A stretch of DNA of 64,000 nucleotides from Candidatus Levyibacteriota bacterium (GTDB lineage: Bacteria > Patescibacteriota > Microgenomatia > Levybacterales > UBA12049), in NCBI GenBank assembly GCA_041906785.1, contig JAYRIM010000017.1, forward strand, positions 210-64,209. Reading direction: 5' to 3'. Shown here piece by piece: positions 6,005-59,424 of this stretch. The translations under genes and the position numbers were made by a program. Position 1 is the first letter of the stretch. Each line of letters begins with the position of its first letter. Under the pieces are notes generated by a model. That model was not told the DNA's origin. It saw nothing but the letters and a program-made list of their open reading frames with translations, and made no database searches.

Positions 6005-6082
6005 AAAGGTGTTATGAGGCTAATTATACTAAATACATAATACTAAATACTAGATACAGTAAGGATTTTTTTCTAGGGATAG

Positions 6083-6108
6083 GCGCGGGGTCGTGAGACC
6101 CCGCGCCC
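6083..6108 (-). terminator. GC-rich perfect hairpin (11-bp stem, GGCGCGGGGTC-GTGA-GACCCCGCGCC) downstream of the GC-rich secreted-protein gene
   Basis: Perfect inverted repeat in an AT-rich context. No U-tract, so it may be a protective stem or processing site rather than an intrinsic terminator. Confidence 0.45.
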
Positions 6109-6146
6109 GATGTGCTCCCCAGGCTTAAACCGAAAAAGCTAAACCT

Positions 6147-6644
6147 TTAGTCCGAAATCCACCACCACGCGTAAAACCGCTCAGGGTAGACTCGAAGACG
6201 GATCGTGGGCCAAATTTGGATAATACTGTTAGTCCAGCCCATGGAGACCAACAGCTCTGTTCTCGTCAACTGGTAGAGTCGGGGATCAATACGCGGCCGC
6301 CAATCACCACGCTGTACGCGGTACCACCCACCATAAGCCACATTGTATGTGTATGGGTGATCCCAATGGATGGAACCCTGCTTGACGTTGTAGAATCCGA
6401 CGGAGTAGTGATACTCCCCGTCGTATTCTTCGTAGATATAGTTCCCGGGCATCCATGACCACGCCCCCTGTTGATCTCTCGCTGCAGCACCAGGCGGATC
6501 CTTTGGAGGTGTGGGTGGTTCTTGCAGCAACACATGGTCCTTGGTGTCGCGAGGCCCGTCAGCCAGAGTTGTCTGCGGGACAAGCAGAAATGCCAGCCCA
6601 CAAACCACAAGCACGAGTAGCGCAAAATTGCGCAGTGTCTTCAT
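6147..6644 (-). CDS. Secreted Trp/Tyr-rich protein on a GC-rich islet (signal peptide plus 140-aa domain)
   Basis: The N-terminal signal peptide is MKTLRNFALLVLVVCGLAFLLVP. The DNA is about 55% GC against roughly 36% in the flanks. YNVAYGGWYRVQRGDWRPR-type aromatic motifs are present. Confidence 0.6.
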   Translation of the reverse strand: MKTLRNFALLVLVVCGLAFLLVPQTTLADGPRDTKDHVLLQEPPTPPKDPPGAAARDQQGAWSWMPGNYIYEEYDGEYHYSVGFYNVKQGSIHWDHPYTYNVAYGGWYRVQRGDWRPRIDPRLYQLTRTELLVSMGWTNSIIQIWPTIRLRVYPERFYAWWWISD

Positions 6645-6891
6645 CTCTTATCTCCTTGTGATCATCTGCGGCTGCTAATAGCCGCAAGTCGGTAAATAGT
6701 TTTTCGGCTTTCCTGGGGCACAGACAAAAAATAACAGTATTTACTTTCTCTCTGTACCACAGGAAATATGTAAAAGTGCCAAGAAGGTGTATATTATAGG
6801 ATAAACTCATCAATAAAACAAATAAGTGGTTAAGAAGTATAAATATACTTTCTGTGTTATCCTTTTATATTTTTCATTTTTTATATTGTTT

Positions 6892-7371: not shown

Positions 7372-7381
7372 ATACGAATTA

Positions 7382-7801
7382 CTACGAATGTAATCCTAAT
7401 CTATCCGAATCAGGCAGATTAAGAATCCTCTTATATTCTAGGCTACTTCCATAGAAATTAACAAGAATACCTAGCTCGAGACTGGTTGCATGCAAATATG
7501 CCTTTATCTGCTTATAATCATTTTTTGTAAATATGGGTTTTACTTTTAATTCAACAACTATTTTTTCATATAAAAGAAAATCTAAATAATATTTTCCAAT
7601 CCCCTCACCATCAATTTTTAGATCCACCATAATTTCCCTCTTGAAAGGAATTCTATATTTACGCAGTTTTACCTCGACGGCACGTTGATAATATTTCTCT
7701 TGGTACCTATTACCTAATTCATTATGAACTTCAAAAAAGATTCCTGTTATTATGTAACTCAACTCGGGATAAAGCACTTTTTTATCAATATTTGGATTCA
7801 T
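7382..7801 (-). CDS. GxxExxY family protein (PD-(D/E)XK-like 'IVS-type' protein)
   Basis: 139 aa. The family hallmark GxxExxY is present as YPELSYIITGIFFEVHNELG, followed by DFLLYEKIVVELK and GILVNF motifs. The gene is bounded by ATTCGGAT/ATCCGAAT inverted motifs. Confidence 0.8.
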   Translation of the reverse strand: MNPNIDKKVLYPELSYIITGIFFEVHNELGNRYQEKYYQRAVEVKLRKYRIPFKREIMVDLKIDGEGIGKYYLDFLLYEKIVVELKVKPIFTKNDYKQIKAYLHATSLELGILVNFYGSSLEYKRILNLPDSDRLGLHS

Positions 7802-7829
7802 TCGGATGTAATTTGTAGGAATTCGGATA

Positions 7830-8441
7830 TCAATAAACTGACCTTCCTTCTAAAGCTCTCGTTAATGTACTACTATCAGCATATTCTAAATCAGCACCAA
7901 TAGGCAAACCACGCCCAATTCTCGTAATTTTGAGATTTGAGTTTTGAGATTTGAGATTTTTTGCAATATACATAGCAGTTGCTTCACCTTCCATTGTCGG
8001 ATTCGTCGCCAATATAACTTCATTGACTCTTTGACTCCCTGTCTCTCTGACTCTCTGTATTAACTGTCCAATATAAATCTCATCAGGACCAATATTATTT
8101 AATGGATCGATTTTCCCATGCAGCACATGATATACTCCCTTATAATGACCGCTTTTTTCTAGAGCGAGCACATCTAACGGCTGTTCTACGACACAAATAG
8201 TAGTTTTATCTCGTTGTGAATCACTGCAAATTGAACACGGATCCATTTCATCTACTGAATAACAAGTAGAACATATAACGGTATTTTGTTTTAACTTTTG
8301 AACTGCAGAAGCAAATGAATCGAGCTCATGCTGTGGCACATGCAATAGGTAAAAAGTCAACCGTTGTGCAGATTTCGGTCCGATACCAGGCAATCTTTCA
8401 AATGATTCAATTGTGTTTTGTATTGCTTTAGGAATTTTCAT
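7830..8441 (-). CDS. recR: Recombination protein RecR
   Basis: HhH (LPGIGPKSAQRL), C4 zinc finger (CSTCYSVDEMDPCSIC) and Toprim (ILATNPTMEGEATAMY). Confidence 0.95.
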   Translation of the reverse strand: MKIPKAIQNTIESFERLPGIGPKSAQRLTFYLLHVPQHELDSFASAVQKLKQNTVICSTCYSVDEMDPCSICSDSQRDKTTICVVEQPLDVLALEKSGHYKGVYHVLHGKIDPLNNIGPDEIYIGQLIQRVRETGSQRVNEVILATNPTMEGEATAMYIAKNLKSQNSNLKITRIGRGLPIGADLEYADSSTLTRALEGRSVY

Positions 8442-10303: not shown

Positions 10304-10359
10304 AATCTACACCTCCTCCCATATAATTCTATTTTAGCATGTTCTACAAAAATAATGTC

Positions 10360-10470
10360 TATTCTCACGAATCTTGCGAAATGTTTACGAAATATGCGAA
10401 AAGAACAATAGTTATTTCGCGATATTCGCAAATAGATTCGTGATTTTCGTGAAAGATATGATACTAAAAT
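10360..10470. promoter_or_regulatory. Dyad-symmetric array of (A/G)CGAAAT / ATTTCG(C/T) motifs between dnaX and ybaB
   Basis: Three direct GCGAAAT-like words are followed by four inverted ATTTCGNGA-like words (ttgcgaaat...acgaaat...gcgaaaag // atttcgcgat attcgcaaa gattcgtga ttttcgtga). Confidence 0.35.
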
Positions 10471-10498
10471 CAGTTATTTATAACACGCTAAAAAAACC

Positions 10499-12118
10499 TT
10501 ACGACTTCAGTACTACTTCAACCTTTATAGTATTTCCAGTAAGAACTTTACATGCTTCTTCGAGAATAGCACGTGTTTTTGCTTGATCTAACCGTTCTTT
10601 GTGAAACGTATAAGCAGTTTCAATAACTAATGTTTTTTTATCAAATTGTTTTATCATACATCCACGTAAAACCCCCGCAATAGTATGATTGTGCTTTTTC
10701 ATTTCTCCGATAAGCGCTTGCCAGAAGCTCCCCAACCATTCTGCTGTAATCTCTGTATTTGAAGTTTGTAATAAATCGATTGATGGTTTCACATCTCCTG
10801 CTTTTTGTTCATCTGTTGCTATTTTTTCTTCACCATATAACGCCTTTACCCGCGCCAAATCCCCAAGTTGTTTTCTCATGCTCGCCACTGTAACTCCGTT
10901 ACTAGAAGGTTTGCTAATAGTTACCTTCGTAGTCTCTGTAACTTCGACCTTTTCCGTTTCATGTAAAGTTGTATAATCAATAATTGCTAATTCTAAAGGC
11001 AGCTGCGGCACAACTGCATACTTCATCTCCTGTATCACTCTACCCAATAAATCAAGCAAAACTTTTATTTGTTCAATAGGTAATTCTGCATTCTGAATTC
11101 TAGATTCTGAACTCTGTAAGACTCCAACTTTTACTAATAACAGGCTATGCAACGTGTCGAACAACTGTTCTGTAAAAGTTTTTATGTCTACACCCTCAGC
11201 CACGACTTGTTCGATACGTTTTATTCCTTCTTTAGTATCCTTTTTCTGCAAACTTTCAATAATACTTAATACTTGATATTTGATACTTGATACCTTATAT
11301 CGTTTTTCTAGAAGATCAAGCGTTATATGTTTCTCTCCCATCGAGACTAATTCTTCGAGAATCTTATGAGCATCACGAAATCCTCCATCTGCCAAATGGA
11401 CAATTGATTCAATAGCAGCTTCATCAATATCCAATTTCTCATTCTCTGCAATTCGTTTGAAAGAGCGGGCAATCTCTTCTTTTGTGGCAGGAGAAAACTG
11501 TACTTGAAAACATCGAGAGATAATCGTTGCAGGTACCTTTTGCAATTCTGTCGTACAAAGAATAAACATCGCATGAGCTGGAGGCTCTTCTAGGGTTTTT
11601 AAAAGTGCATTAAATGCCTCAGTAGTAAGCATGTGAACTTCATCTATGATATATATTTTTTTTCGAGCTGAGAGTGGAGAGAGTTTTATTTTTTCCCGTA
11701 AATCCCGAATCTCATCAATCCCTCGATTCGATGCTGCATCTATTTCAAGAACATCCAAATTCGCACCGTTTGTTATAGAAATACATTGCTCACATGCATT
11801 ACACGGCTCCAATCGGTTGTCAGTTGTGGGTTGTGAGTTATCAGTTAACTCTTCAGAAGACTTTTTATTTTTGAGTTTTAATTTTGAGTTTTGACTTTTG
11901 AATTTTGAATTGTTTTCACAATTCACAACCTTCGCAACAATTCTCGCCGTAGATGTTTTTCCTAAACCTTTCGGACCAGTGAAGAGAAAAGCATGGGGTG
12001 GTTCCGGTAAAGATAAAACAGCTGTTAATGTCTTTCTAATATATTCACTATCTAAGTCATCTATTTTTTGTGGACGATATTTTCTGTAATAAACCATACT
12101 ATGAAAATTAAAAATCAA
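10499..12118 (-). CDS. dnaX: DNA polymerase III subunit gamma/tau
   Basis: Walker A (GPKGLGKTS), zinc module (C...PCNACEQC), IYIIDEVHML, SRC motif (SRCFQ). A roughly 33-aa low-complexity insert (NSKFKSQNSKLKLKNKKSSEE...) splits the Zn module. Confidence 0.9.
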   Translation of the reverse strand: MIFNFHSMVYYRKYRPQKIDDLDSEYIRKTLTAVLSLPEPPHAFLFTGPKGLGKTSTARIVAKVVNCENNSKFKSQNSKLKLKNKKSSEELTDNSQPTTDNRLEPCNACEQCISITNGANLDVLEIDAASNRGIDEIRDLREKIKLSPLSARKKIYIIDEVHMLTTEAFNALLKTLEEPPAHAMFILCTTELQKVPATIISRCFQVQFSPATKEEIARSFKRIAENEKLDIDEAAIESIVHLADGGFRDAHKILEELVSMGEKHITLDLLEKRYKVSSIKYQVLSIIESLQKKDTKEGIKRIEQVVAEGVDIKTFTEQLFDTLHSLLLVKVGVLQSSESRIQNAELPIEQIKVLLDLLGRVIQEMKYAVVPQLPLELAIIDYTTLHETEKVEVTETTKVTISKPSSNGVTVASMRKQLGDLARVKALYGEEKIATDEQKAGDVKPSIDLLQTSNTEITAEWLGSFWQALIGEMKKHNHTIAGVLRGCMIKQFDKKTLVIETAYTFHKERLDQAKTRAILEEACKVLTGNTIKVEVVLKS

Positions 12119-12198: not shown

Positions 12199-12591
12199 TT
12201 ATTCATGGTGTATTCCTAGTAAGTGCATCATTGAATGCCTTATTAACTCATCTATTTTTTCATCTACTAATACTTCATCCCTCGCTGCTTCTACAAGAAC
12301 TTGAGGATAAGAAATAATAATATCTCCAAGCCGGGTAATTGTAGTATCCTGGGGCATAACTGTTGCCTCACCTTCGCCTAAGGGAAATGATAAGACATTG
12401 GTTGTTTTATCGAGATTACGATATTTTTTATTTAAAGCCTTCATTTTCCGATCCCCGACCACAGCTAAAGAAACTTCAACAGCTGTTGAAACACTATTCT
12501 CACTCAGCACAGAAAGTACTGTTTTCTTCATCCTTTTCCTGTTTACTTTATATCTGCTCTCAACAAAAATGAGAACTTTAGAAGAATTCAT
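12199..12591 (-). CDS. ybeY: rRNA maturation endoribonuclease YbeY
   Basis: C-terminal metal-binding H-x-x-x-H-x-x-x-x-x-H motif (HSMMHLLGIHHE). About 130 aa. Confidence 0.8.
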   Translation of the reverse strand: MNSSKVLIFVESRYKVNRKRMKKTVLSVLSENSVSTAVEVSLAVVGDRKMKALNKKYRNLDKTTNVLSFPLGEGEATVMPQDTTITRLGDIIISYPQVLVEAARDEVLVDEKIDELIRHSMMHLLGIHHE

Positions 12592-12691
12592 ATACGAATT
12601 TCTACAAACTAGATCCGAATTGTTCCGAATTATGAAATATTATTCGTAGCAATTAGGATTAAAAACATTTTTATTCGGATTTATTCGTAGC

Positions 12692-12874
12692 TTAGTGTGT
12701 TCGACGTTTTAAACGACGTAAATGCTGTTCTGCAAGCTTCTTTTTCTCTTGCTTGTTTAAATGAAAACGTCTATCTTTCACTTCTTGAATGATATTCGAC
12801 TCAACAACTTTACGAGTAAAGTTTTTAATAAGTTGGTCATCACTTTGGCCTGGTACTTTTTTAACAAAAACCAT
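12692..12874 (-). CDS. rpsU: 30S ribosomal protein bS21
   Basis: 60 aa, very basic, with the RRLKRR C-terminus. Strong SD (AAAGGAGGTG) 8 nt upstream. Confidence 0.85.
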   Translation of the reverse strand: MVFVKKVPGQSDDQLIKNFTRKVVESNIIQEVKDRRFHLNKQEKKKLAEQHLRRLKRRTH

Positions 12875-12894: not shown

Positions 12895-12978
12895 GGAAAG
12901 AACCAAAAGAGACAAAAGAGCCATAAGAGCCAGAGGTAATCACATTTGTCTCATTTGGCTCCTTGGTCTCCTCTGGAA
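12895..12978 (-). repeat. Imperfect hairpin made of 9-nt periodic CTC(N)T(N)TGG / CCA(N)A(N)GAG words in the rpsU 5' leader (copy 1 of 2)
   Basis: Left arm ccaaaagag-acaaaagag-ccataagag-ccagagg. Right arm catttgtct-catttggct-ccttggtct-cctctgg. The same word family recurs at 31741-31850 in the glyA leader. Confidence 0.5.
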
Positions 12979-13104: not shown

Positions 13105-13506
13105 TCAAGCACTCTGGAGCTTCTCTTTAATCTTCTCCAAGGATTCACGTAGCGGATGTTTAACAACACCTTGTAACGCATGACCTCCATCTGTCTCCCA
13201 GCGTGGAATAAGATGAATATGGAGATGAGGAACTCCTCGTTTTTCTTTATGATTAATACCTATTGTGATAGAATCACATTCTAAAGCTTTTTCTAACTTC
13301 TGTACGACGATTTGCGCAGTAGCCATCGCTTTTCCTAATTCTTCTTGTGTATACTCTAAAATATTATTTCCGTGCTTTTTAAGAATTACAAGAGTATGAC
13401 CTGGCGCTGAGGGTGTAACATCAAGAAATGCCATTGTCTCCTCTGTTTCATAAATCGAACTAACTGGTATTTCTTTTTTGACTATTTTACAAAATATATC
13501 ATCCAT
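13105..13506 (-). CDS. HIT family hydrolase (Hint-like)
   Basis: Histidine-triad motif HLHIHLIP. Confidence 0.85.
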   Translation of the reverse strand: MDDIFCKIVKKEIPVSSIYETEETMAFLDVTPSAPGHTLVILKKHGNNILEYTQEELGKAMATAQIVVQKLEKALECDSITIGINHKEKRGVPHLHIHLIPRWETDGGHALQGVVKHPLRESLEKIKEKLQSA

Positions 13507-13615
13507 AATATAAAATTGTTATATTGCTATAGTGTTTTATTGTTAAGTTAAATTCCTTCCCCCAAGAGAGAAGGTCAGGATGAGGAAACAATAGAGCAAT
13601 AAAACAATATAACAA
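13507..13615. repeat. Inverted-repeat pair of about 28 nt (TTGTTATATTGCTATAGTGTTTTATTG // CAATAGAGCAATAAAACAATATAACAA) enclosing a 45-nt spacer
   Basis: Visible by reverse-complement reading. Sits between the DHH phosphoesterase stop and the HIT start. Same architecture as the IR pairs that bound the four-helix-bundle cassettes, but with no cargo. Confidence 0.5.
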
Positions 13616-14635
13616 TTACTGATAGAGTTTTTCAAGCACTTTTATTATTTGATCTAAAGATAAAGTCGTGGGTACCATTTTCGGATTTTTAACACTTCCA
13701 TTTAATAGCATTTTTTTACTGACATGAAGAAACCAAGTCGCCCCAGCATCCATCTTTTTTAATTGCTCATACGCAAGAGTCAAATCAATTCCTTGTGAGA
13801 TTTCCGCCTTTGACCCCTTTGGCTCTTCTGTCTCATATATCCCCTCTGCTCTATTTGGAAGTGTTTTAATCGATACATGACCTCTTCTCGGATCTTTTCT
13901 AATAACTAATACATATCCTTTCTTCTGTGCTAACTTTACGACCGACTCATTCGCACTTAACAAACCTATTGCTTTTCCATACTTTGTCTTAAATTCAATA
14001 GCATTTCCTGCTTCTTCTCCGTCAATTTTTGATTTTTGCTCTCGGCCTGAGCTCGAGCCGAAGGCATTTTTAATTTTTAATTCTCTTTCTGCCCATACTT
14101 TATTTTCAAAGTATGATAATAAATAATCTAAATTCGTACAGCCGAATTCTACATAATAGTCATCCTCCCCAGGTTTTTTATACTGTAACCCTTCGTTAAT
14201 ACCGAAAAGTGAAAAATCATGGTAATCAGCATCTGCTTGGGGACGAAAAACTTCTTGGAAATGGTCATACGCTACGACAAGGGATACAATTCGTGAAATT
14301 GCTTCTACTGCTTGCTCTTTTAATGGCTGTTCTGATACCTGACGCTGGCTTTGGACGAAATCCCAAGCACGCTTAGCACCGCAAGTGTTTTGATCAGGTG
14401 TTTGATGATGATCCAATGGTCCTAGACCAGTGTCTACATGGATAATCTCTGTATTCCCAATAGTAAGTACAGGCTCGGATTCAAATTCGGGATGATTTTT
14501 AACTCTATCGCTTCGCAGACCAGCAGGTACAAATTCTATATCTGCCTTTTCCCAGCCAGGTAAGAAACGTTTTAATACCCAAACTGATGTAATCGCATCA
14601 AGGTCTGGCGACATATGAGTGACAATAATTTTCAT
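13616..14635 (-). CDS. DHH-family phosphoesterase (NrnA-like)
   Basis: N-terminal HMSPDLDAITS (DHH motif I/II) and GLGPLDHHQ (DHH motif III). Confidence 0.75.
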   Translation of the reverse strand: MKIIVTHMSPDLDAITSVWVLKRFLPGWEKADIEFVPAGLRSDRVKNHPEFESEPVLTIGNTEIIHVDTGLGPLDHHQTPDQNTCGAKRAWDFVQSQRQVSEQPLKEQAVEAISRIVSLVVAYDHFQEVFRPQADADYHDFSLFGINEGLQYKKPGEDDYYVEFGCTNLDYLLSYFENKVWAERELKIKNAFGSSSGREQKSKIDGEEAGNAIEFKTKYGKAIGLLSANESVVKLAQKKGYVLVIRKDPRRGHVSIKTLPNRAEGIYETEEPKGSKAEISQGIDLTLAYEQLKKMDAGATWFLHVSKKMLLNGSVKNPKMVPTTLSLDQIIKVLEKLYQ

Positions 14636-20766: not shown

Positions 20767-20810
20767 AAAAAAACCGCCCTTAATCCCGATCTCATCGGAA
20801 CAAGGACGGA
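20767..20810 (-). terminator. Intrinsic-terminator-like hairpin plus U7 tract abutting the start codon of the 20311..20766 ORF
   Basis: On the minus strand, ccgtcctt-[gttccgatgagatcgggatt]-aagggcgg is followed by ttttttt, then gtgcat-ATG. Confidence 0.5.
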
Positions 20811-21112
20811 AATAATTCTGTAACTCAAATTTTTGACTTTTAACTTTTGAGCTTTGAATTAATTCGTGGTACCACCTTGCTTTCGCTTGCTACAAAAAAT
20901 CCACCTTTCGGTGGAACAACAGAACTATAGCAATTGCTTATTTCTGCGCTCCGTTGCCGACACGCTTTATCGTATTTCTTGTCCTCCGTAGTTTTAACGA
21001 AGGACGGATACGGTTGACTTCCGTATTGCTCATCGCAATCAGCTCATTTGGCGGGAAACCAAACTTCTTGTCCTCCAAAGCTTTAGCGAAGGAGGAATAA
21101 CGCTTTATTAAT

Positions 21113-21148
21113 GAATATAATAAAACAACTAGCTAGCCTTGTCAATAA
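21113..21148 (-). promoter_or_regulatory. Near-consensus sigma70-type promoter (TTGACA-N17-TATTAT) firing into the structured leader
   Basis: The minus-strand sequence is cttatTGACAaggctagctagttgtttTATTATattc, located just after the gnd stop. Confidence 0.5.
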
Positions 21149-21154
21149 GTTTTT

Positions 21155-25995: not shown

Positions 25996-26168
25996 GCGAA
26001 GGCGGATTTCGCTGTAGATCAATTACAGTCGTAGAATAACAAAAAGAGGCCAGCACCTTCTTGACGCTATAATGACAGCTAGCTAACAAGATGCTTACAA
26101 AACATTGTGCTTGTAACTTGTAATGCAAGAGATTTTACGTAATACGTTATACGCTACACGTTTCACGA

Positions 26169-27377: not shown

Positions 27378-27397
27378 AATTTTATTTTACCATGTCT

Positions 27398-27428
27398 ATA
27401 GCTTAGAGCATAGAGCATAGAGCTTAGG
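27398..27428. repeat. Left inverted repeat of four-helix-bundle cassette 1 (tagcttagagcatagagcatagagcttaggg)
   Basis: Reverse-complement partner at 27794-27824 (ccctatgccctaagctctctgctcttagcta). Confidence 0.7.
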
Positions 27429-27783
27429 GTTTTAAAATGGATGCTTTAAAAGCTCTTATTTTTTTAGATAATATTTCTGCCTTGTTATATAAATCTTTAT
27501 ATGTCTGATGAGAGATATAGTGTAACTCTTTTGCAACAAATAAATGTGATACTGCTTCATATAAAGACTTAACTGAAACATCAAGAAAATATGCAAATTC
27601 TTTCTTTGAAGAGCTCCCACTTCCTTCCGAAATATTTGCAGCAATAGAAGTTGCTGCCCTTCTTAATTGATCAACTAATGAGAAGAATTCCTCACGGGGA
27701 AATGTTTTTGTAATTATATAAATATCTTTAATGAACAATACAGAATCTTTCCAAATATCCAAAGTTTCAAATCTAAATGCCAT
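27424..27783 (-). CDS. Four-helix-bundle protein (TIGR02436, '23S rRNA intervening-sequence protein' family)
   Basis: DQLRRAATSIAANISEG hallmark. About 120 aa. Confidence 0.85.
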   Translation of the reverse strand: MAFRFETLDIWKDSVLFIKDIYIITKTFPREEFFSLVDQLRRAATSIAANISEGSGSSSKKEFAYFLDVSVKSLYEAVSHLFVAKELHYISHQTYKDLYNKAEILSKKIRAFKASILKP

Positions 27784-27793
27784 ATATAATCTA

Positions 27794-27824
27794 CCCTATG
27801 CCCTAAGCTCTCTGCTCTTAGCTA
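27794..27824. repeat. Right inverted repeat of four-helix-bundle cassette 1; overlaps the frr stop codon
   Basis: See the left arm at 27398-27428. Confidence 0.7.
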
Positions 27825-28373: not shown

Positions 28374-28406
28374 AACTTTATATTAACACAAGAAACGTAA
28401 TAAAGG

Positions 28407-28515: not shown

Positions 28516-29007
28516 TTACTCTCCAATCGCAAATCTCTGGAAACGTTTAACAGCAATATTCTCTCCTAATTTCCCAATAACACCTTTAATAACATCTTGA
28601 ATCGTTTGAGAAGGCTCTCGAATATATTCTTGTTTTAACAATGCTTCGACATTCTCAGGATTCATTGCAGCAATCTGCATACCTATTTCTTTCGCCAAAT
28701 GTTTAAATTCATCTGTTCGAGCGACGAAGTCCGTTTCACAAGAAATCTCTACGAGAACGCCAACTTTTCCTCCACCATGTATATATGATTCAATCAATCC
28801 TTGACCGGTCGTTCTATCTGCTTTCTTCTCTGCAATAGCAGCAGCTCGTTTTTTAAGCCATTCTAAAGCTTTTTTATAATCTCCTTCTGATTCTTCTAAT
28901 GCGCGTCTACAATCAGCGATAGAAGCAGATGTTTCTTCACGAAGTTTTTTTAATGTCTGTAAATCGTAGTTTGCCATACTTTGTATATAGAAAATGGCGA
29001 ATGGCAA
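28516..29007 (-). CDS. tsf: Elongation factor Ts (short form)
   Basis: N-terminal UBA-like LKKLREETSASIADCRRAL, then TDFVARTDEF. Confidence 0.9.
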   Translation of the reverse strand: MPFAIFYIQSMANYDLQTLKKLREETSASIADCRRALEESEGDYKKALEWLKKRAAAIAEKKADRTTGQGLIESYIHGGGKVGVLVEISCETDFVARTDEFKHLAKEIGMQIAAMNPENVEALLKQEYIREPSQTIQDVIKGVIGKLGENIAVKRFQRFAIGE

Positions 29008-29031
29008 ATAGAAACTATTCGCTATTATCTA

Positions 29032-29892
29032 TTAGCTATTCGCTTTTTTTGTGGTTGTCTTTTCTGCCTTTTTCTCTTCAGTCTTTTCTGTCTCCTTTTT
29101 CGCTTTTCCCTTTGATACTTTTGATACCTCTGATACTTTTCCCTCTTCTTCTTTCTTCGCCTCTGGCTCCTCCGTCCCTTTCGCTGCCTTCTTCTTTCCT
29201 TCAATCCATGCATCGACAATATATGATGTAATCAATTTAATACTCCCAGCCGCATCGTCATTTGCTGGAATTGGATATGTAATAGGATCTGGATCTGCAT
29301 TTGTATCAACCATTCCAACAACTGGAATGCTCATTGCATTCGCTTCTCTAACAGCTAAATCCTCCATATGAGTATCAATGATAAAAAGAACATCTGGCAT
29401 CTTCGCCATATCTTGCGTACCGCCATAATAGATATTCAATTTTTGTTTTTCTTTCTCCCATAGTGAAACTTCTTTTTTCGTATATTTCGCTTTTTCAGTG
29501 TCATTTTGCAAACGTTGTGTTAAATCTTTTAATTTTTTATAGTTTTTAAGCACTTCGCCAGCATTTGTTAATGTACCGCCTATCCATCGTGCGGTAACTG
29601 TATATATATTATTTACTCCTTCATCTTGTGCACGTTTCAATTCCTCTTTCACAACAATTGCAGCTTGGCGTTTCGTTCCTAAAAGAAGAATCGTACTTTC
29701 TGGTTTTTCAGCAATTTCCTTAATAAAAGCAGCAGCCTTCTCTAAGCCTTCTTTTGTTTTCTCAAGGTCAATAATGTGGATATTATCACGGGCCTCAAAT
29801 ACGAAATCACGAGATTTCGGATTCTGTCGTGTTACTTGGTGACCAAAATGGCAACCAGCTTCAAGAAGTTCTTCAAGTGTTATTGTTCTCAT
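29032..29892 (-). CDS. rpsB: 30S ribosomal protein uS2 with a K/E-rich C-terminal tail
   Basis: GCHFGHQ, and LLLGTKRQA. The tail is encoded by tandem gatacttttgatac repeats. Confidence 0.95.
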   Translation of the reverse strand: MRTITLEELLEAGCHFGHQVTRQNPKSRDFVFEARDNIHIIDLEKTKEGLEKAAAFIKEIAEKPESTILLLGTKRQAAIVVKEELKRAQDEGVNNIYTVTARWIGGTLTNAGEVLKNYKKLKDLTQRLQNDTEKAKYTKKEVSLWEKEKQKLNIYYGGTQDMAKMPDVLFIIDTHMEDLAVREANAMSIPVVGMVDTNADPDPITYPIPANDDAAGSIKLITSYIVDAWIEGKKKAAKGTEEPEAKKEEEGKVSEVSKVSKGKAKKETEKTEEKKAEKTTTKKANS

Positions 29893-33569: not shown

Positions 33570-33582
33570 AAATAAGTATTAT

Positions 33583-33604
33583 GTAGTAAGTAGTATGTAT
33601 TATG
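33583..33604. repeat. Left inverted repeat of four-helix-bundle cassette 2 (gtagtaagtagtatgtattatg), built from 7-nt AGTAKTW words
   Basis: Near-perfect 22-nt reverse complement of 33973-33994 (cataatacatactacttactac). Confidence 0.75.
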
Positions 33605-33968
33605 AATTATTTTTTAAACTTTTTAGTAATCCATTAATAAGTTTACTTACTAAAATAGTTCTCTCAGCCAATTCCTGGAATTTTTCATTTGAGATATACT
33701 CTAAATCTCGAGCAATTAAGAGCTGGTTCTGTAGTTCTGTTAATGATCCTAAAGCCATATAAAGAAACTGCGCTTTTTCTTTTTTCGTTTGTCGTGAAAA
33801 CCCTTCTGCGATATTACTTGTTATAGAAATAACACAGCGACGCATTTGGTCTACTAAGCCGAACTTCTCATAATTTGGAAAAGTAAATAATATCTTATGA
33901 ACTTCAAGCACTATTTTGTGTCCTTCCTTCCAAGCATTCAGATCTGTAAACGATCTTATTTTATTCAT
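33600..33968 (-). CDS. Four-helix-bundle protein (TIGR02436 family), copy 2
   Basis: DQMRRCVISITSNIAEG hallmark. Confidence 0.85.
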   Translation of the reverse strand: MNKIRSFTDLNAWKEGHKIVLEVHKILFTFPNYEKFGLVDQMRRCVISITSNIAEGFSRQTKKEKAQFLYMALGSLTELQNQLLIARDLEYISNEKFQELAERTILVSKLINGLLKSLKNNS

Positions 33969-33972
33969 ACTA

Positions 33973-33994
33973 CATAATACATACTACTTACTAC
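33973..33994. repeat. Right inverted repeat of four-helix-bundle cassette 2; overlaps the last codons and stop of the downstream HIT gene
   Basis: See 33583-33604. Confidence 0.75.
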
Positions 33995-38710: not shown

Positions 38711-38758
38711 ACTTTGTGATTTATACTCAATACCAAATACTAAATACTTTATACTACT
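38711..38758. repeat. AGTAT heptad-repeat block (ATACTAAATACT family) between dut and tmk
   Basis: aatactaaatactttatac. Related copies at 6021-6060 and 39975-40030. Related also to the IR of cassette 2. Confidence 0.45.
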
Positions 38759-39246: not shown

Positions 39247-39993
39247 TCATTTTTCATTTTTATTTTTTAATTTCCCTAGAATATCATCTGTCACTTGTTC
39301 TACAGGTTTTTCCCCATCTATTAGAACAAACTCCTTCTTAAATTCTTTTATTAACCAACGATATCCAGCCACAACTTTCTCGAGTTTTTCTTTTTTTTCG
39401 TAGACATCATTTTCTGCTTTTCTGTCTTTCTTTTTTAATGACCTCCGTAAACCTTCTTCAGGACTAATATCTATATAAAAAACAATATCAGGAATAATAA
39501 ATTGGTGGTAGTGGGATAATAAACCCTGTGTTATAAGCATTCGATCAGCTCCTTCACGCGTAAAATTAACACCTTTATCCATTAATCCATAGGGAATCGC
39601 TGACCAAAAACATCGGTCTGAAATCACGACATGTCCTTTTTTTAATGCAGGGATTACTATTTCATCCTGGTTTATCGCACGATTCGCAGACATCCAGTAT
39701 TGAAATGCTTGACCAGAGATTGCAATCTCTCCTCGAAAAAATTGCATAATCTGCTCTCCGCCTGGAAGAGTTACACGAGGCTCGCTTGTCATAGTCACTT
39801 TTTTTCTCTTTTTTATGAAATATGTTTCTAAAGCTTTTGCTTGAGTCGTTTTTCCCGAACCATCTATGCCTTCAAGGGCTATATAGAAACCCTTAAATGG
39901 GTTCTTTTTTAATGAGATATCTAATTCGATATGGTATTCCATGTTTCGTATCGAGTATAGAGTATTTTGTATTTTGTATATCATTATTATCAC
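39247..39993 (-). CDS. Thymidylate kinase-like dNMP kinase (paralog 2)
   Basis: P-loop IALEGIDGSGKTTQ. SDRC motif (for DRY) further on. Confidence 0.7.
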   Translation of the reverse strand: MIIMIYKIQNTLYSIRNMEYHIELDISLKKNPFKGFYIALEGIDGSGKTTQAKALETYFIKKRKKVTMTSEPRVTLPGGEQIMQFFRGEIAISGQAFQYWMSANRAINQDEIVIPALKKGHVVISDRCFWSAIPYGLMDKGVNFTREGADRMLITQGLLSHYHQFIIPDIVFYIDISPEEGLRRSLKKKDRKAENDVYEKKEKLEKVVAGYRWLIKEFKKEFVLIDGEKPVEQVTDDILGKLKNKNEK

Positions 39994-40028
39994 TTCATAC
40001 TAAATACTTAATACTAGATACTTTATAC

Positions 40029-47320: not shown

Positions 47321-47386
47321 CTTACTGACAACTGACCCGCTTCGACCTGTCGAAGACGAGGCGAGCAACCGACAACTGATAACTGC
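47321..47386. repeat. Solo copies of the cassette-3 IR word (ACCGACAACTGATAACT; GACAACTGA x2) plus a cttcg-acctgt-cgaag hairpin
   Basis: 17/18 match to accgactactgataact at 58303-58320. Confidence 0.5.
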
Positions 47387-56540: not shown

Positions 56541-57941
56541 ATGAAAGAATATCTCGTAACGCTTATTGTTCTCTATCTTCGTTTCTTTGCAGTTAAAACA
56601 CTAAAAAATCACCGACCTACAATCATCGGTATTACTGGTACAGCAGGAAAATCTTCAGCCCGCGATATGATCAACGGGATATTAAAAGACCACTATGCGA
56701 CAAAAGTCGTGCATGGAAACTCTGAGACAGGCATTCCTCTCGGAATCATGGGTATTAAACCGAAGAGTCTGGGATTTGAAACATTTACAAAGAGTGTTTT
56801 TGATTGGCTAACTATTATTTTTCGCGCACCCTTCTCTACGCACCACCTGAAAGGTGTCAAATATCTGATCGTAGAAATGGGAATCGATGATCCTTTTCCA
56901 CCAAAAAATATGGAGTATCTCCTCTCAATAGTAAAACCCGATATCAGTATTTTTCTTAATGTGGGTGCGATGCATACCATGCAATTTGAAAAATTACTTC
57001 CAAATTCTTCAAAAGGAACAAGAAGTTGGTTTAATAATGATCAGGAAAAAACTGAATATCTTATCGGACGAATAGCTGATGAAAAAGCGAAAATCATTAC
57101 TGAATCTGGGTGTAAAATCGGTATTTATAATGCTGATAATTCCTACATCTTAGAAACTATCCGTCAATATGCAAATAAAGCTACAACCCTTCTAACGTTC
57201 GGCAGTAAACCCAACAATTCATTAACATATAAAAAATATGCAGTTGATCTACATGGTACAACCTTTACATTTGAGTACGCTAACGGCGAAATTATCATAC
57301 AAATTTTAGGCTATCTTCTACCAGAAACCTATAGAGAGACTATCGCTGCAGCTATTCTAGCCGGATTACAAACAGGATTAACTATAAAACAAATAATTGA
57401 GTCTCTCGAAAAGAATTTCTCATTACCGAAAGGGAGAGCGACATTACTAAAAGGCATACATGATAGTATACTTATCGATTCTTCATATAATGCCTCGCGG
57501 ATAGCAGTAGAAGGTATGTTAGGACTCGTCTCTGTGTTAAAAAAAGAAACGAAACGACCTACTGTATTCATTATGGGTGATATGCGGGAACTTGGTAGTG
57601 AGACACAATACGAACATGAAACAGTGGCAGAGAAAATTATTGGAACTGTAGATTATCTCTATTTGGTAGGACCTCAAACCAGAAGGTATGTGCTTCCGGT
57701 TATTCAACAACGTGAAGACACATTTAGAGAAATACGCTGGTTTGAATCATCAACACGCGCTGGAGATCATGTAAAAGAAACGCTTCCCGAACACGCTATT
57801 GTATTAATAAAAGGTTCCCAAAATACAATATTTCTCGAAGAAGCAGTGAAATTATTACTAAATGATAAAAGTGATGAATCTAAACTTTGTCGACAAGAAG
57901 ACTTTTGGATGAAGAGAAAAAAAGTGATCAGTAATCAGTAG
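56541..57941 (+). CDS. murF: Mur ligase family protein, probably UDP-MurNAc-tripeptide--D-Ala-D-Ala ligase
   Basis: IIGITGTAGKSS P-loop, DSSYNAS, and a Mur ligase C-terminal domain. Its stop codon lies inside the left IR of the adjacent cassette. Confidence 0.75.
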   Translation: MKEYLVTLIVLYLRFFAVKTLKNHRPTIIGITGTAGKSSARDMINGILKDHYATKVVHGNSETGIPLGIMGIKPKSLGFETFTKSVFDWLTIIFRAPFSTHHLKGVKYLIVEMGIDDPFPPKNMEYLLSIVKPDISIFLNVGAMHTMQFEKLLPNSSKGTRSWFNNDQEKTEYLIGRIADEKAKIITESGCKIGIYNADNSYILETIRQYANKATTLLTFGSKPNNSLTYKKYAVDLHGTTFTFEYANGEIIIQILGYLLPETYRETIAAAILAGLQTGLTIKQIIESLEKNFSLPKGRATLLKGIHDSILIDSSYNASRIAVEGMLGLVSVLKKETKRPTVFIMGDMRELGSETQYEHETVAEKIIGTVDYLYLVGPQTRRYVLPVIQQREDTFREIRWFESSTRAGDHVKETLPEHAIVLIKGSQNTIFLEEAVKLLLNDKSDESKLCRQEDFWMKRKKVISNQ

Positions 57942-57952
57942 TCAGTTATCAG
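57926..57952. repeat. Left inverted repeat of four-helix-bundle cassette 3 (gatcagtaatcagtagtcagttatcag); overlaps the murF stop
   Basis: Partner at 58290-58319 (ctgataactgattaccgactactgataact). Confidence 0.7.
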
Positions 57953-58280
57953 CTAAGGAACGCGAAAAAGCATTTATTTGCCTACCTAAAAATTTAAAAT
58001 CTTCTTGAAGGAGATCCGTATTAATTCCATATACAATTGCCACAACTTGAAGTAATGCAACCGTTTCATTTGCAGAACCTGAAGCAATTTGGAGATAATT
58101 TTGAAATTGCTTAGTTGACCTGCAGTACCCTTCAGTAATATTTGCAGCAACTGAAATTGCCGCTCGACGTATTTGATCAATCAGCGCAAAGTCTTTAAGT
58201 AACTGAGGATTGTTACGAGTTAAAATATATACTTCTGCGACTAACGCTAGAGCTTTCTTGTATATCTTCAACTTTTCCAT
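57942..58280 (-). CDS. Four-helix-bundle protein (TIGR02436 family), copy 3
   Basis: DQIRRAAISVAANITEG hallmark. Confidence 0.85.
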   Translation of the reverse strand: MEKLKIYKKALALVAEVYILTRNNPQLLKDFALIDQIRRAAISVAANITEGYCRSTKQFQNYLQIASGSANETVALLQVVAIVYGINTDLLQEDFKFLGRQINAFSRSLADN

Positions 58281-58289
58281 CTGTTTTCA

Positions 58290-58319
58290 CTGATAACTGA
58301 TTACCGACTACTGATAACT
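58290..58319. repeat. Right inverted repeat of four-helix-bundle cassette 3; reaches the stop codon of 58318..59424
   Basis: See 57926-57952. Confidence 0.7.
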
Positions 58320-59424
58320 ACCTTCCTCCCTGGACTGACAATTCACGAATAAAGAGATTATAATCATAGTGATTTACTGTTCCCTCATCTGTTAAATCAG
58401 CCATATTCTTCTGCTCTGTTGTACAAGCTCTTGCTCGTGTAATAATCGTTCCAGTGTAACATCCATAAAGAATATTATAATCGAGAATATTTAGTTGGTT
58501 ATCAGTCACTACGTCACCTGTTACAAGAGTCATCGCAGGTAAAGAAACTGTTTGACCTGGGGTGAGAAGTTGTATTCCTGGAAAAGCATTTCGTAAATAC
58601 TGATCAGACTTCAATGTCACGATATAGTTTCCTTGTGTAATATCTGTGCCCAAATCTGCACTTCCTGTAAACGAACCGCTTTCTGAAGCATATTGCATCC
58701 GAGATGTAGCTATAGCGATACGTCTGTTTGCACTATCTAATACTTCTATCGAAACAGCCCTATCTTTTCTTCGAGGATTTTTATTACTTAAACTATTGGC
58801 ATTAGGGTTCGCATTATCTCCACTGTTCCCTAATCCATGAAGAAATATATTGTAATTTATCTGCACTAGCGGGCGCGGTGTAGGCGTAGCAGTCGGTTGC
58901 GGTGTCGATGATGGGTTTGGTGTTACTGTCGCTGATGGCCGAGGTGTGGCTGTTGGAATAGCTGTTGGCTGTGGAATATCTCTATCGTTTACATATGGGG
59001 TAGGAGTTGCTGACGGTTCACAACGGGTTTGAGTACAATCACTTGGGCAACTGCATGCATCTTCATTAAAGTCACATGTTCTATCACCACAATACGGAGC
59101 ACATGCATTTGATGTGCATGTACATATTACATCCCAACATCTCCAATCATATCCGCCGCACGGTGTAAATGAACACTGTACACCATAACTAATATGCCCT
59201 AGGGTTGAACAAGAGTTACCAGTATTACCTGAATCACCATCAGTTGAAATGTTTGTCTCTGAACAACGAGGGTTATCACCACCTACACAGCTATAGTATT
59301 TTGTTCCGCACGCTTGAGCAAAAACTGAAGGAATATTTTGAAATACAAAAATAAACAGGATAATAAAAAAAACTACAAATCTCATGCTTTCTTCCACTGT
59401 AGCATTGAGGAAAAGAAGTGTCAA
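58318..59424 (-). CDS. Secreted Cys-rich protein with PT linker, conserved C-terminal module and dockerin-like tail
   Basis: Signal/TM at the N-terminus. A 30-Cys N-domain. The (TPxPSAT)n linker. IFLHGLGNSGDN...NKNP module. GDVVTDNQLNILDYNIL...ADLTDEGTVNHYDYNLFIREL. Confidence 0.55.
   Translation of the reverse strand: MTLLFLNATVEESMRFVVFFIILFIFVFQNIPSVFAQACGTKYYSCVGGDNPRCSETNISTDGDSGNTGNSCSTLGHISYGVQCSFTPCGGYDWRCWDVICTCTSNACAPYCGDRTCDFNEDACSCPSDCTQTRCEPSATPTPYVNDRDIPQPTAIPTATPRPSATVTPNPSSTPQPTATPTPRPLVQINYNIFLHGLGNSGDNANPNANSLSNKNPRRKDRAVSIEVLDSANRRIAIATSRMQYASESGSFTGSADLGTDITQGNYIVTLKSDQYLRNAFPGIQLLTPGQTVSLPAMTLVTGDVVTDNQLNILDYNILYGCYTGTIITRARACTTEQKNMADLTDEGTVNHYDYNLFIRELSVQGGR

What the first reader, a model, noticed from the sequence alone, without database searches (positions are those of the whole stretch)
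12592..12690. Solo or 'empty' copies of the cassette inverted-repeat families are scattered at operon junctions
The repeat words that bound the cassettes recur without cargo at several sites.

- **ATTCGGAT/ATCCGAAT/ATTCGTAG family (GxxExxY cassette):** at 12592-12690 it forms an IR pair around a 40-nt spacer just upstream of ybeY. Gene starts at 7371 and 12591 also share the 15-mer ATTCATATACGAATT.
- **ACCGACWACTGATAACT family (cassette 3):** recurs at 47321-47386 upstream of a cohesin gene.
- **AGTATT heptad family (cassette 2):** recurs upstream of cysS (6021-6060), between dut and tmk (38711-38758) and between dcd and tmk2 (39994-40028).
- **13507-13615:** holds an unrelated 28-nt IR pair with only a 45-nt loop.

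This is the pattern expected for MITE-like empty sites or excision footprints. It argues the cassettes are, or were, mobile. Alternatively the words are protein-binding heptads or promoter elements, since several contain TATAAT-like -10 boxes on the coding strand (for example tagtataat before cysS).
Basis: seen in the sequence. Interest (0 to 1): 0.6.

Follow-up and report, generated by a model that had tools for sequence, protein, structure and literature searches.

The report
Gene-less copy of nuclease-cassette hairpin arms
The 100-base spacer between rpsU and ybeY is a gene-less copy of the inverted word arrays that flank a small nuclease gene inserted between housekeeping genes in this uncultured (CPR) lineage; this nuclease–array pairing did not turn up in my limited literature search.

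Summary
The repeats are real, and the core claim holds for one family. On the coding (minus) strand, spacer 12592-12691 reads three NNNCGAAT words, a short loop, then three ATTCGNNN words, spaced 10 or about 21-31 nt apart. The last word abuts the ybeY start codon.

- **Link to the cassette.** Across 36 distinct relatives of the window's GxxExxY (PD-(D/E)XK nuclease) gene from metagenomes, CGAAT is 37-fold enriched upstream and ATTCG 20-fold enriched downstream, strictly oriented.
- **Occupied and empty sites.** At recR|next-gene, relatives carry an intact gene, a nonsense-interrupted gene, a gene-less hairpin with homologous arms, or nothing. Cassettes also sit at other junctions.
- **Same junction elsewhere.** One relative (L144) has a gene-less array at rpsU|ybeY too. 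No relative sampled had a gene there.
- **Unsupported parts.** I found no target-site duplications, no high copy number and no promoter. Links of the AGTATT and ACTGATAACT arrays to the four-helix-bundle cassettes are marginal (p about 0.03 and 0.01).
- **Wider setting.** Those arrays belong to a lineage-wide 7-nt periodicity of intergenic DNA.
- **Closest analogues.** These are rRNA intervening sequences, with or without their ORF, and REPIN/RAYT.
- **Open question.** Whether the arms act as RNA stems or as DNA or protein-binding sites is untested.

The parts
12592..12691 (-). Gene-less CGAAT/ATTCG inverted word array filling the rpsU|ybeY spacer from stop to start. The 5' arm words are CTACGAAT (12683-12690), ATCCGAAT (12673-12680) and CTACGAAT (12642-12649). 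The 3' arm words are ATTCGGAA (12623-12630), ATTCGGAT (12613-12620) and ATTCGTAT (12592-12599), which abuts the ybeY ATG at 12591.
7372..7410 (-). 3' arm of the GxxExxY cassette (ATTCGGAT, ATTAGGATTA, ATTCGTAG, ATTCGTAT). It overlaps the last codons of the gene and ends 2 nt before the ATG of the next gene (7371).
   Evidence: (D14)
7382..7801 (-). GxxExxY / PDDEXK_3 gene (139 aa). It has the PD-(D/E)XK nuclease fold with E35, D74, E84 and K86 invariant.
7800..7829 (-). 5' arm of the GxxExxY cassette (ATCCGAAT, CCTACAAAT, ATCCGAATG). It runs from 1 nt after the recR stop codon into the cassette start codon.
10304..10498 (-). dnaX|ybaB spacer holding a diverged CGAA(T/A)-type hairpin (z = -3.2). 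Relatives L081, L082 and L140 have a CGAAT-type gene-less hairpin at the same junction.
28998..29042 (-). Short GCGAAT / ATTCGC hairpin at the rpsB|tsf junction; a weak solo array.
13514..13617 (-). Inverted repeat of 31-nt arms built from 8-nt words (TTGTTATA, TTGTTTTA, TTGCTCTA) with a 42-nt loop containing a small G+C hairpin.
   Evidence: (I13)
39948..40028 (-). Gene-less heptad hairpin (GTATnnn x5 / nnnATAC x5) between dcd and tmk2.
38711..38758 (-). One-armed GTATnnn heptad array between dut and tmk.
6021..6060 (-). One-armed GTATnnn heptad array upstream of cysS. It is 31/32 identical to an array at frr|rseP in another genome (L109).
47321..47386 (+). Two direct TAACTGA-like heptad stretches around a small G+C hairpin. 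They are not an inverted pair. A promoter-like site follows at 47393-47421.
27378..27821 (-). Four-helix-bundle (TIGR02436 / S23p) cassette 1 with GCTCTAT-type heptad inverted arms. Orthologues in L091 and L135 have co-varying arms.
33570..33994 (-). Four-helix-bundle cassette 2 with GTAGTAA-type heptad inverted arms (28 nt, 93% complementary).
   Evidence: (I14)
57914..58328 (-). Four-helix-bundle cassette 3 with TAACTGA-type heptad inverted arms (39 nt, 79% complementary).
   Evidence: (I6)

Best explanation
**What it is.** The rpsU-ybeY spacer is an ORF-less member of a cassette family found in this Patescibacteria (CPR) lineage. A full member is a small GxxExxY gene, encoding a minimal PD-(D/E)XK nuclease, inserted between two co-directional housekeeping genes. 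On its 5' side are two to six words of the form T..AT[A/C]CGAAT. On its 3' side are the inverse words ATTCG[G/T]AT. Words are mostly 10 nt apart (then 13 or 11). The arrays fill the spacers from the upstream stop codon to the downstream start codon.

**Shown.** The two arms are complementary to each other. Their variable positions co-vary between arms. The 3' arm is a conserved module of about 45 nt and four words that ends at the next gene's ATG.

**Inferred.**
- The arms pair and loop out the inserted ORF, most simply in the polycistronic transcript. This is the topology of rRNA intervening sequences, which RNase III cuts out. It would let a selfish ORF sit in an operon while the flanking cistrons are brought back together or separated by processing.
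- The gene-less form arises when the ORF decays or is deleted and the paired arms are kept.
- The spacer at 12592-12691 is such a form. It retains both arms, a short loop and the ATG-abutting last word, and it now serves as the intercistronic hairpin and 5' leader of ybeY.
For: - **Arrays go with the gene.** In 36 distinct cassettes, CGAAT occurs at 25.9 per kb in the 100 nt upstream against 0.7 per kb background. ATTCG occurs at 18.0 per kb downstream against 0.9. The opposite orientation is at background, and spacing peaks at 10 nt.
- **Clusters sit next to genes.** Of 84 word clusters in 1.47 Mb of held DNA, 65 lie next to a GxxExxY gene.
- **The solo spacer matches the cassette arms.** It has the same word set, and its 3' arm aligns without gaps to the cassette 3' arms of the window, L084, L085, L088 and L140, and to the gene-less recR site of L141. 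The match is 25/30, which 0 of 200 shuffles reached.
- **Series at recR|next-gene.** The gene is intact in the window, the P0005 contig and L084-L088. It carries an in-frame TAA in L140. L141 (about 138 nt) and L081 (223 nt) have gene-less hairpins. L082 has 49 nt and L144 has 18 nt with no array.
- **Other junctions are occupied elsewhere.** These are ybeY|dnaX in L082, and tsf|frr in 20 or more loci where the window has a 142-nt unrelated hairpin.
- **Cassettes are embedded in operons.** They are co-directional with the upstream neighbour in 27 of 30 cases and with the downstream neighbour in 34 of 35, with gaps of tens of nt.
- **The arms pair.** The cassette minimum-free-energy fold closes with a stem between the recR stop region and the next gene's start region. 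Cognate arms pair at -37.0 kcal/mol against -30.4 for non-cognate arms. Variable triplets are shared between cognate arms with Jaccard 0.18 against 0.073, which 0 of 5000 permutations reached.
- **Precedent.** The Coxiella 23S IVS has an ORF in the loop, a 28-bp terminal inverted-repeat stem cut by RNase III, tandem heptamers before the ORF and a decaying ORF (PMC4990558). In CPR, ORF-containing and ORF-less insertions occur at the same rRNA sites (PMC11270868).
- **The cargo looks like an active nuclease.** E35, D74, E84 and K86 are invariant. The model has pLDDT 87, and its best structural matches are Cas4 and lambda-exonuclease-type nucleases.
Against: - There are no transcript data, so RNA-level pairing and RNase III cutting are pure inference.
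- The solo spacer folds only marginally better than shuffles (z = -1.8 to -2.0).
- Mismatches in the arms show no G.U over A.C excess: 59:48, 10:4 and 13:14. Selection on the sense RNA is therefore not demonstrated, and a DNA-level role is equally allowed.
- The phasing of 10-11 nt matches the DNA helical repeat, which fits protein binding on one face of the helix.
- None of the five relatives with sequence at rpsU|ybeY has a gene there. L144 has a gene-less array at the same junction. The array may therefore never have held a gene there, or may be kept for a function of its own.
- At tsf|frr the window's gene-less hairpin is unrelated to CGAAT arms. Not every hairpin is a cassette remnant.
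- The loci were retrieved by similarity to the GxxExxY protein, so the ratio of gene-linked to solo arrays is biased.
Confidence: 0.6

Rival explanations
1. The CGAAT words are phased binding sites on DNA (or RNA) for a protein, possibly the GxxExxY nuclease itself. The arrays at rpsU|ybeY would then be an operator- or iteron-like control or recognition site. Complementarity of the two arms would be a by-product of inverted binding sites.
For: - The core CGAAT is invariant while neighbouring bases vary.
- Spacing peaks at 10 nt, then 13 and 11, close to one DNA helical turn.
- There is no G.U over A.C asymmetry.
- The array persists without a gene at the same junction in L144.
- The cargo has an intact nuclease active site and a DNA-nuclease-like fold.
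Against: - No binding protein has been identified.
- The variable positions co-vary between the two arms. Binding-site models do not need this, although inverted duplication could produce it.
- Many other spacers carry hairpins built from unrelated words with periods of 7 or 8 nt. A single specific binder cannot explain those.
Confidence: 0.22
2. The solo array is a non-autonomous mobile element of the MITE or REPIN type. It would have been copied into the rpsU|ybeY spacer in trans by the cassette-encoded nuclease, rather than being a cassette that lost its gene.
For: - The architecture parallels REPIN/RAYT: a gene flanked by inverted copies of a repeat whose gene-less inverted pairs lie in extragenic space (PMC3116915 and PMC3337134, abstracts only, listed).
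- Within the window the solo array and the cassette share their particular word variants, including a 15-mer found only at these two sites.
- Assemblies of relatives break inside such spacers.
Against: - There is only one clear solo array in 64 kb.
- It is only about 78% identical to the cassette arm.
- No target-site duplication can be defined.
- The same junction carries a diverged solo array in L144, which indicates age rather than a recent jump.
- PD-(D/E)XK enzymes of this family have no demonstrated transposition activity (function listed as unknown in PMC3424549).
Confidence: 0.12
3. The arrays are promoter elements, or simple slippage-generated repeats or chance words in A+T-rich spacers, unconnected to the cassettes.
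For: - Heptanucleotide tandem repeats are the commonest long simple repeats in bacteria and are ascribed to slippage (Mrazek 2007, as summarised in PMC4679880).
- The intergenic DNA here has a general 7-nt periodicity.
- The last unit of several GTATnnn arrays resembles a -10 box.
- The window-wide count of ATTCGKAD is only modestly above shuffles.
Against: - The CGAAT family has a period of 10, not 7.
- Enrichment is 20- to 37-fold and strictly oriented next to one gene family across many genomes.
- Clustering is extreme and the 25/30 match was reached by 0 of 200 shuffles.
- No sigma-70-like site lies on the sense strand in 12592-12691, nor in the three AGTATT spacers.
- This explanation remains viable only for the AGTATT and TAACTGA-like arrays.
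Confidence: 0.05

Closest known systems
23S (and 16S) rRNA intervening sequences carrying the S23p / four-helix-bundle ORF (Coxiella, Leptospira; also CPR rRNA insertions)
   Same: - The ORF sits in the loop of a long stem formed by terminal inverted repeats.
- Tandem heptamers with variable copy number lie just upstream of the ORF.
- ORF-less versions exist, and the ORF decays while the stem is kept (PMC4990558; PMC11270868).
- The window's three TIGR02436 genes have exactly this layout.
   Different: - Here the elements sit between protein-coding genes, not in rRNA helices.
- The family behind this finding carries a PD-(D/E)XK nuclease rather than S23p.
- Its arms are 10-nt-phased CGAAT words.
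- RNase III excision is untested.
REP / REPIN elements and their RAYT transposase
   Same: - A single gene is flanked by inverted copies of a short repeat.
- Gene-less inverted pairs of that repeat occupy extragenic spaces.
- Persistence is long and largely vertical (PMC3116915, PMC3337134 and bioRxiv 10.1101/2021.07.10.451892, abstracts only, listed).
   Different: - The enzyme class differs: a PD-(D/E)XK nuclease rather than a Y1 HUH transposase.
- The arms are arrays of phased words rather than one palindrome.
- Very few solo copies were seen: one clear copy in 64 kb.
- Trans-mobilisation has not been shown.
Intergenic heptamer tandem repeats (TAACTGA repeats of Beggiatoaceae, Cyanobacteria and Bacteroidetes; long simple sequence repeats; cyanobacterial STRR, the last from my own knowledge)
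   Same: - These are 7-nt tandem words in spacers that often end next to a start codon lacking a Shine-Dalgarno sequence, and they change in 7-nt steps (PMC4679880).
- The arms of cassette 3 contain the very word TAACTGA.
- The AGTATT arrays behave in the same way.
   Different: - Here many arrays come as inverted pairs and bracket four-helix-bundle genes. That paper does not report this (it describes one inverted repeat among 170 sets).
- The CGAAT family has a period of 10 and a conserved core.
MITEs and excision footprints
   Same: They are short, non-coding, intergenic and have inverted ends.
   Different: No target-site duplication was found, copy number is low, copies are only about 78% alike, and the array is present at the orthologous site in a distant relative.
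Intercistronic RNase III processing hairpins (phage T7 early region; from my own knowledge and reference B10 of PMC4990558)
   Same: This is a functional comparison only: stem-loops between co-transcribed genes that allow cistrons to be separated.
   Different: There is no sequence relationship, and processing has not been tested here.

Membership tests
GxxExxY cassette arm family (defined here) | Two or more NNNCGAAT words on the sense strand followed by two or more ATTCGNNN words, about 10 nt apart (or multiples) | tested here: met
   In the spacer (sense strand) CGAAT lies at offsets 13, 23 and 54, and ATTCG at 70, 80 and 101. The family spacing peaks at 10 nt.
GxxExxY cassette arm family (defined here) | [quoted passage not shown] | tested here: met
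   The solo 3' arm aligns without gaps to the cassette 3' arms, and ATTCGTAT is followed by ATG.
GxxExxY cassette arm family (defined here) | A GxxExxY gene, or a recognisable remnant of one, between the arms | tested here: not met
   Only about 40 nt lie between the arms, and tblastn found the single gene at 7382-7801 in the window. This is what makes the spacer the gene-less form.
rRNA intervening sequence (IVS) | Inserted in a 23S or 16S rRNA helix | tested here: not met
   The site lies between rpsU and ybeY. The Rfam scan found only one tRNA and no rRNA in the window.
rRNA intervening sequence (IVS) | Terminal inverted repeats forming a stem that encloses the insert | tested here: met
   The cassette fold closes with the flanks paired. 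Cognate arms pair better than non-cognate arms. The solo stem is weak.
rRNA intervening sequence (IVS) | Excision by RNase III | not testable with these tools
   This needs transcript end-mapping or an enzyme assay.
REPIN / RAYT | Associated gene is a Y1 (HUH) tyrosine transposase | tested here: not met
   The gene matches TIGR04256 and PF13366, has invariant D74, E84 and K86, and folds like Cas4 and lambda exonuclease.
REPIN / RAYT | Tens to hundreds of gene-less copies per genome | tested here: inconclusive
   One clear and two weak solo arrays were found in 64 kb. The whole genome is not available.
MITE | Target-site duplication flanking the element | tested here: not met
   The arms run from the stop codon to the start codon with no flanking direct repeat. 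Occupied and empty orthologous spacers cannot be aligned.
MITE | Multiple near-identical copies within a genome | tested here: not met
   The best within-window match is 78% over 45 nt (D14).
Heptamer tandem repeats (LSSR / TAACTGA type) | Tandem units of 7 nt | tested here: not met
   For the CGAAT family the period is 10-13 nt. The feature is met for the AGTATT, TAACTGA-like and other arrays: the lag-7 match is 0.351 against about 0.28.
Intrinsic terminator | G+C-rich stem followed by a T run | tested here: not met
   None was reported in 12592-12691.
Sigma-70 promoter | -35 and -10 hexamers at 16-18 nt on the sense strand | tested here: not met
   There is no site in 12592-12691 on the minus strand. 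This was a simple consensus scan only.

The most novel reading that the evidence does not exclude
GxxExxY (PDDEXK_3) nucleases and their phased, inverted CGAAT arrays form an undescribed class of operon-embedded selfish element in CPR bacteria. The nuclease would recognise or cut its own arrays, in DNA or in the transcript. Gene-less arrays such as 12592-12691 would be its non-autonomous partners or relics. More broadly, the heptamer repeats long known from Cyanobacteria, Beggiatoaceae and Bacteroidetes, phyla from which I recall (not checked here) many four-helix-bundle and GxxExxY genes, would be the arms and relics of such IVS-like cassettes.
Probability: 0.25. Interest if true: 0.8.

Novelty: new variant of a known kind. 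Interest (0 to 1): 0.6.

Why it matters
- **A testable handle on an uncharacterised family.** GxxExxY/PDDEXK_3 is a widespread protein family listed as function unknown (PMC3424549). A conserved, oriented, phased DNA motif that travels with the gene gives a concrete substrate or binding-site candidate to test.
- **A wider role for the IVS layout.** The ORF-in-a-stem layout known from rRNA intervening sequences is shown here to also organise spacers between protein-coding genes in reduced CPR genomes. Such elements appear to turn over at fixed operon junctions.
- **A possible source for bacterial heptamer repeats.** Their origin and spread are unexplained (PMC4679880).
- **Practical consequences.** These repeats break metagenome assemblies and mislead start-codon calls (ybeY and tmk2 here).

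Tried and rejected
- **Genome-contig scan with DnaX.** It was saturated by a universal motif. The best hits were 34% identical, so it gave no close relatives.
- **Exact look-ups of the window's own YbeY and DnaX.** Neither is on record, so the source contig could not be fetched.
- **P0005 contig.** Only the gene table was returned, with no DNA, so its 151-nt rpsU|ybeY spacer could not be read.
- **G.U versus A.C mismatch asymmetry.** This was meant to separate RNA-level from DNA-level selection. It showed no asymmetry and is inconclusive.
- **Stop-codon / start-codon juxtaposition across 24 cassettes.** Predicted duplexes ran to the limits of the segments supplied, so the symmetric offsets are not interpretable. 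I keep only the single-cassette fold as an observation.
- **Rfam.** No family matched in the spacers, only sub-threshold miRNA-hairpin matches.
- **PDB by sequence for GxxExxY.** Nothing matched. The fold search was needed instead.
- **Promoter reading.** No sigma-70-like site lies in the relevant spacers.
- **Terminator reading.** No T-run hairpin lies in 12592-12691.
- **Solo relatives of cassette 1 arms.** There are none above chance (34 of 200 shuffles).
- **Literature.** Searches for GxxExxY/PDDEXK_3 and for CPR intergenic repeats found no description of these arrays.

Full report
**Setting**

The window has 37% G+C and is mostly a run of minus-strand housekeeping genes. The gene order includes recR 7830-8441, dnaX 10499-12118, ybeY 12199-12591, rpsU 12692-12874 and a HIT protein 13105-13506. 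DnaX, YbeY and GxxExxY homologues are named Patescibacteria, Levybacteria, Roizmanbacteria or Dojkabacteria. The exact proteins sit on a 68-kb NCBI contig. The organism is therefore an uncultured CPR bacterium.

**Observation**

Read on the coding strand, spacer 12592-12691 is:

TAA-GC-CTACGAAT-AA-ATCCGAAT-(loop with TAATCCTAAT and CTACGAAT)-ATTCGGAA-CA-ATTCGGAT-CTAGTTTGTAGAA-ATTCGTAT-ATG.

- The words ATTCG[G/T]A are only mildly over-represented across the window: 26 against 15.7 expected.
- They are extremely clustered. Six lie in this spacer and five flank the GxxExxY gene at 7382-7801.
- The 15-mer shared by the two gene starts occurs nowhere else in the window.
- The best match of the cassette arms to any other spacer is 25/30 here. 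No shuffle out of 200 exceeded 22.
- The fold is only marginal (z = -1.8).
- The inverted repeat at 13514-13617 is robust (z = -4.7).

**What the words belong to**

A metagenome scan with the window's GxxExxY protein returned 56 loci at 40-74% identity. Almost every one shows arrays of NNNCGAAT upstream of the gene and ATTCGNNN downstream.

- Over 36 distinct cassettes, CGAAT occurs at 25.9 per kb upstream and ATTCG at 18.0 per kb downstream. Background is 0.7-0.9 per kb, and the opposite orientation is at background.
- Spacing peaks at 10 nt, then 13 and 11. It is not 7.
- The unit consensus is T..AT[A/C]CGAAT.
- The 3' arm is a conserved four-word module ending at the next gene's ATG. The window's solo array and a second one in L144 align to it.
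- Cassettes are co-directional with both neighbours and fill the spacers.
- The arms pair in the predicted cassette fold.
- Cognate arms fit each other better than arms from other cassettes.

The protein keeps the PD-(D/E)XK catalytic residues. A confident model (pLDDT 87) is closest to Cas4 and lambda-exonuclease-type nucleases. The literature I could search lists the family's function as unknown.

**Occupied and empty sites**

Synteny HIT-rpsU-ybeY-dnaX-ybaB-...-prs-recR-[GxxExxY]-178aa-cysS is conserved in relatives with 55-64% DnaX identity.

*recR|178aa junction*

| State | Where |
|---|---|
| Intact gene | window, P0005 contig, L084-L088 |
| Gene with one in-frame TAA, otherwise intact | L140 |
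| Gene-less hairpin, arms CAAAT/ATTTG, homologous to cassette arms | L141 |
| Gene-less hairpin, 223 nt | L081 |
| 49 nt, no array | L082 |
| 18 nt, no array | L144 |

*Other junctions*
- ybeY|dnaX holds a GxxExxY gene in L082 but 80 nt of heptads in the window.
- tsf|frr holds the gene in 20 or more loci. The window has a 142-nt hairpin of unrelated sequence there.

*rpsU|ybeY junction itself*
- No sampled relative has a gene at this junction.
- L144 has a 65-nt gene-less CGAAT array, again ending ATTCGTATG.
- L142 has a different hairpin, and L082 and L083 have almost no spacer.

**The heptad families**

Intergenic DNA of the window has a clear 7-nt periodicity. The same-base match at lags 7, 14 and 21 is 0.351, 0.326 and 0.317, against about 0.28 elsewhere. 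Coding DNA shows only the 3-nt period. Related CPR loci show the same periodicity, while 80 control loci from other bacteria do not. Nearly every spacer holds arrays of some 7-, 8- or 10-nt word, often as inverted pairs with significant folds.

- The three four-helix-bundle genes (TIGR02436, the S23p family) each sit between inverted heptad arrays with locus-specific words. So do their relatives in other loci. Orthologous cassettes have arms that changed on both sides together.
- At one junction, frr|rseP, different genomes carry different elements:
  - a four-helix-bundle cassette;
  - a CGAAT solo array;
  - a GTATnnn array 31/32 identical to window 6026-6057;
  - TTTTCAA hairpins;
  - CCTAATT hairpins;
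  - a GIY-YIG-type hairpin.
- Spacers are thus occupied by a turning-over population of periodic-word elements.
- The specific links claimed between the AGTATT arrays and cassette 2, and between 47321-47386 and cassette 3, are marginal (6 of 200 and 2 of 200 shuffles).
- 47321-47386 is not an inverted pair and lies next to a promoter-like site.
- The dcd|tmk2 array does have a second arm (39948-39979) and is a real gene-less hairpin (z = -3.45).

**Mechanism**

*Shown*
- The arrays are a specific, oriented attribute of the GxxExxY cassette.
- The two arms are complementary and co-vary.
- Cassettes are embedded in operons.
- Genes decay in place, and gene-less hairpins with homologous arms occupy orthologous sites.

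*Inferred*
- The arms pair to loop out the insert, as in rRNA intervening sequences.
- In those sequences an S23p ORF lies in a stem cut by RNase III, tandem heptamers precede the ORF, and the ORF decays while the RNA stem is kept (PMC4990558).
- CPR rRNA insertions occur with and without ORFs at the same sites (PMC11270868).

*Undecided*
- Whether the arms act as RNA or as DNA is open. There is no G.U over A.C bias, and the 10-11-nt phasing would suit a DNA-binding protein, possibly the nuclease itself.
- Promoter and terminator readings are not supported.

**Comparison with known elements, and novelty**

The closest known kinds are:
- rRNA intervening sequences (same layout, different host site and cargo);
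- REPIN/RAYT (same gene-plus-solo-repeat logic, different enzyme and copy number);
- intergenic heptamer repeats such as TAACTGA (PMC4679880). That word itself occurs in the arms of cassette 3.

None of the papers I could find describes GxxExxY genes bracketed by phased CGAAT arrays, or IVS-like cassettes between protein-coding genes in CPR. The library is incomplete, so this is absence of evidence only. I rate the finding a new variant of a known kind.

**Verdict**

The cassette link is well above chance for the CGAAT family and only marginal for the two heptad families.
"Gene-less copy of the cassette arms" is right, and mobility over evolutionary time is supported.
- "MITE-like" or "excision footprint" is not supported. 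Decay in place, or a retained hairpin, fits better.

Noticed in passing
window 11816-11918 (also 11261-11288 and 7925-7962): dnaX carries a 27-aa in-frame insertion (FKSQNSKLKLKNKKSSEELTDNSQPTTDN) that is absent from a 60%-identical homologue. It is encoded by heptad words (the TTTTGAG family plus CTGATAACT-like words). Heptad arrays also lie inside recR and further into dnaX, so the periodic words invade coding DNA.
   Followed up: partly
window 12531-12591: The public record's YbeY is 110 aa (P0121), but 128-aa homologues align across the whole 130-aa ORF. ATG 12591, which abuts the last array word, is therefore the likelier start.
   Followed up: partly
window 39941-39993: tmk2 probably starts at ATG 39943 rather than GTG 39993. 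The first 17 codons of the long ORF are the loop and 3' arm of a heptad hairpin, and the kinase domain starts at residue 40.
   Followed up: partly
L081 1-46, L140 1-83, L141 1-83: Three independent contigs from relatives all begin inside the ybeY|dnaX spacer. Many GxxExxY hits sit on contigs of about 1 kb. Assemblies appear to break at these repeats.
   Followed up: no
L081 3197-3460, L140 2541-2828, L118 4025-4110: Small GIY-YIG genes (87-95 aa) occupy spacers in relatives. They are flanked by a different, G+C-richer hairpin repeat (GTCATCCTGAAC...GTTCAGCATGAC). The same hairpin type occurs without a gene at frr|rseP in L118.
   Followed up: no
window 6060-6660: A 165-aa ORF (6147-6644) of visibly higher G+C than its surroundings (judged by eye from the sequence) has no family match. 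It is followed by a G+C-rich hairpin (about 6081-6110). It is probably foreign DNA in a 37% G+C genome.
   Followed up: no
window 20767-21154: This 388-nt spacer folds strongly (z = -4.75) and holds two copies of a 35-nt hairpin unit (20976-21010 and 21065-21099). No Rfam family reaches its gathering score. It may be an unannotated RNA gene.
   Followed up: no
window 26135-26172 and 59479-59516: Two spacers share an ACGTnnn heptad array at 82% identity, which is another word family with two copies in the window.
   Followed up: no
window 12907-12975, 31750-31850, 13807-13848, 44364-44394: GGAGCCA/GGAGACA heptad hairpins recur in two spacers (40 nt, 85% complementary between loci). Related words occur inside a gene and in a divergent spacer.
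   Followed up: no
L109 3954-3985 (also L110, L136) versus window 6026-6057: A GTATCTAGTATTTAGTATTA[A/T]GTATTTAGTAT array is 31/32 identical between different genomes at different junctions. That is too close for independent slippage, so it is a discrete conserved or transferred element.
   Followed up: partly
window 28374-28515: The tsf|frr spacer holds a GxxExxY cassette in 20 or more related loci. In the window it is a 142-nt G+C-richer imperfect hairpin with no CGAAT words. In cassette-bearing genomes the first frr codons (MNSD / MDSD) are themselves array words.
   Followed up: partly
window 63389-63462: ARAGORN predicts a tRNA-Cys on the + strand inside a region that the ORF list covers with a minus-strand ORF (63271-63489). 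Rfam at gathering threshold reported only the tRNA-Ile at 62369-62440.
   Followed up: no
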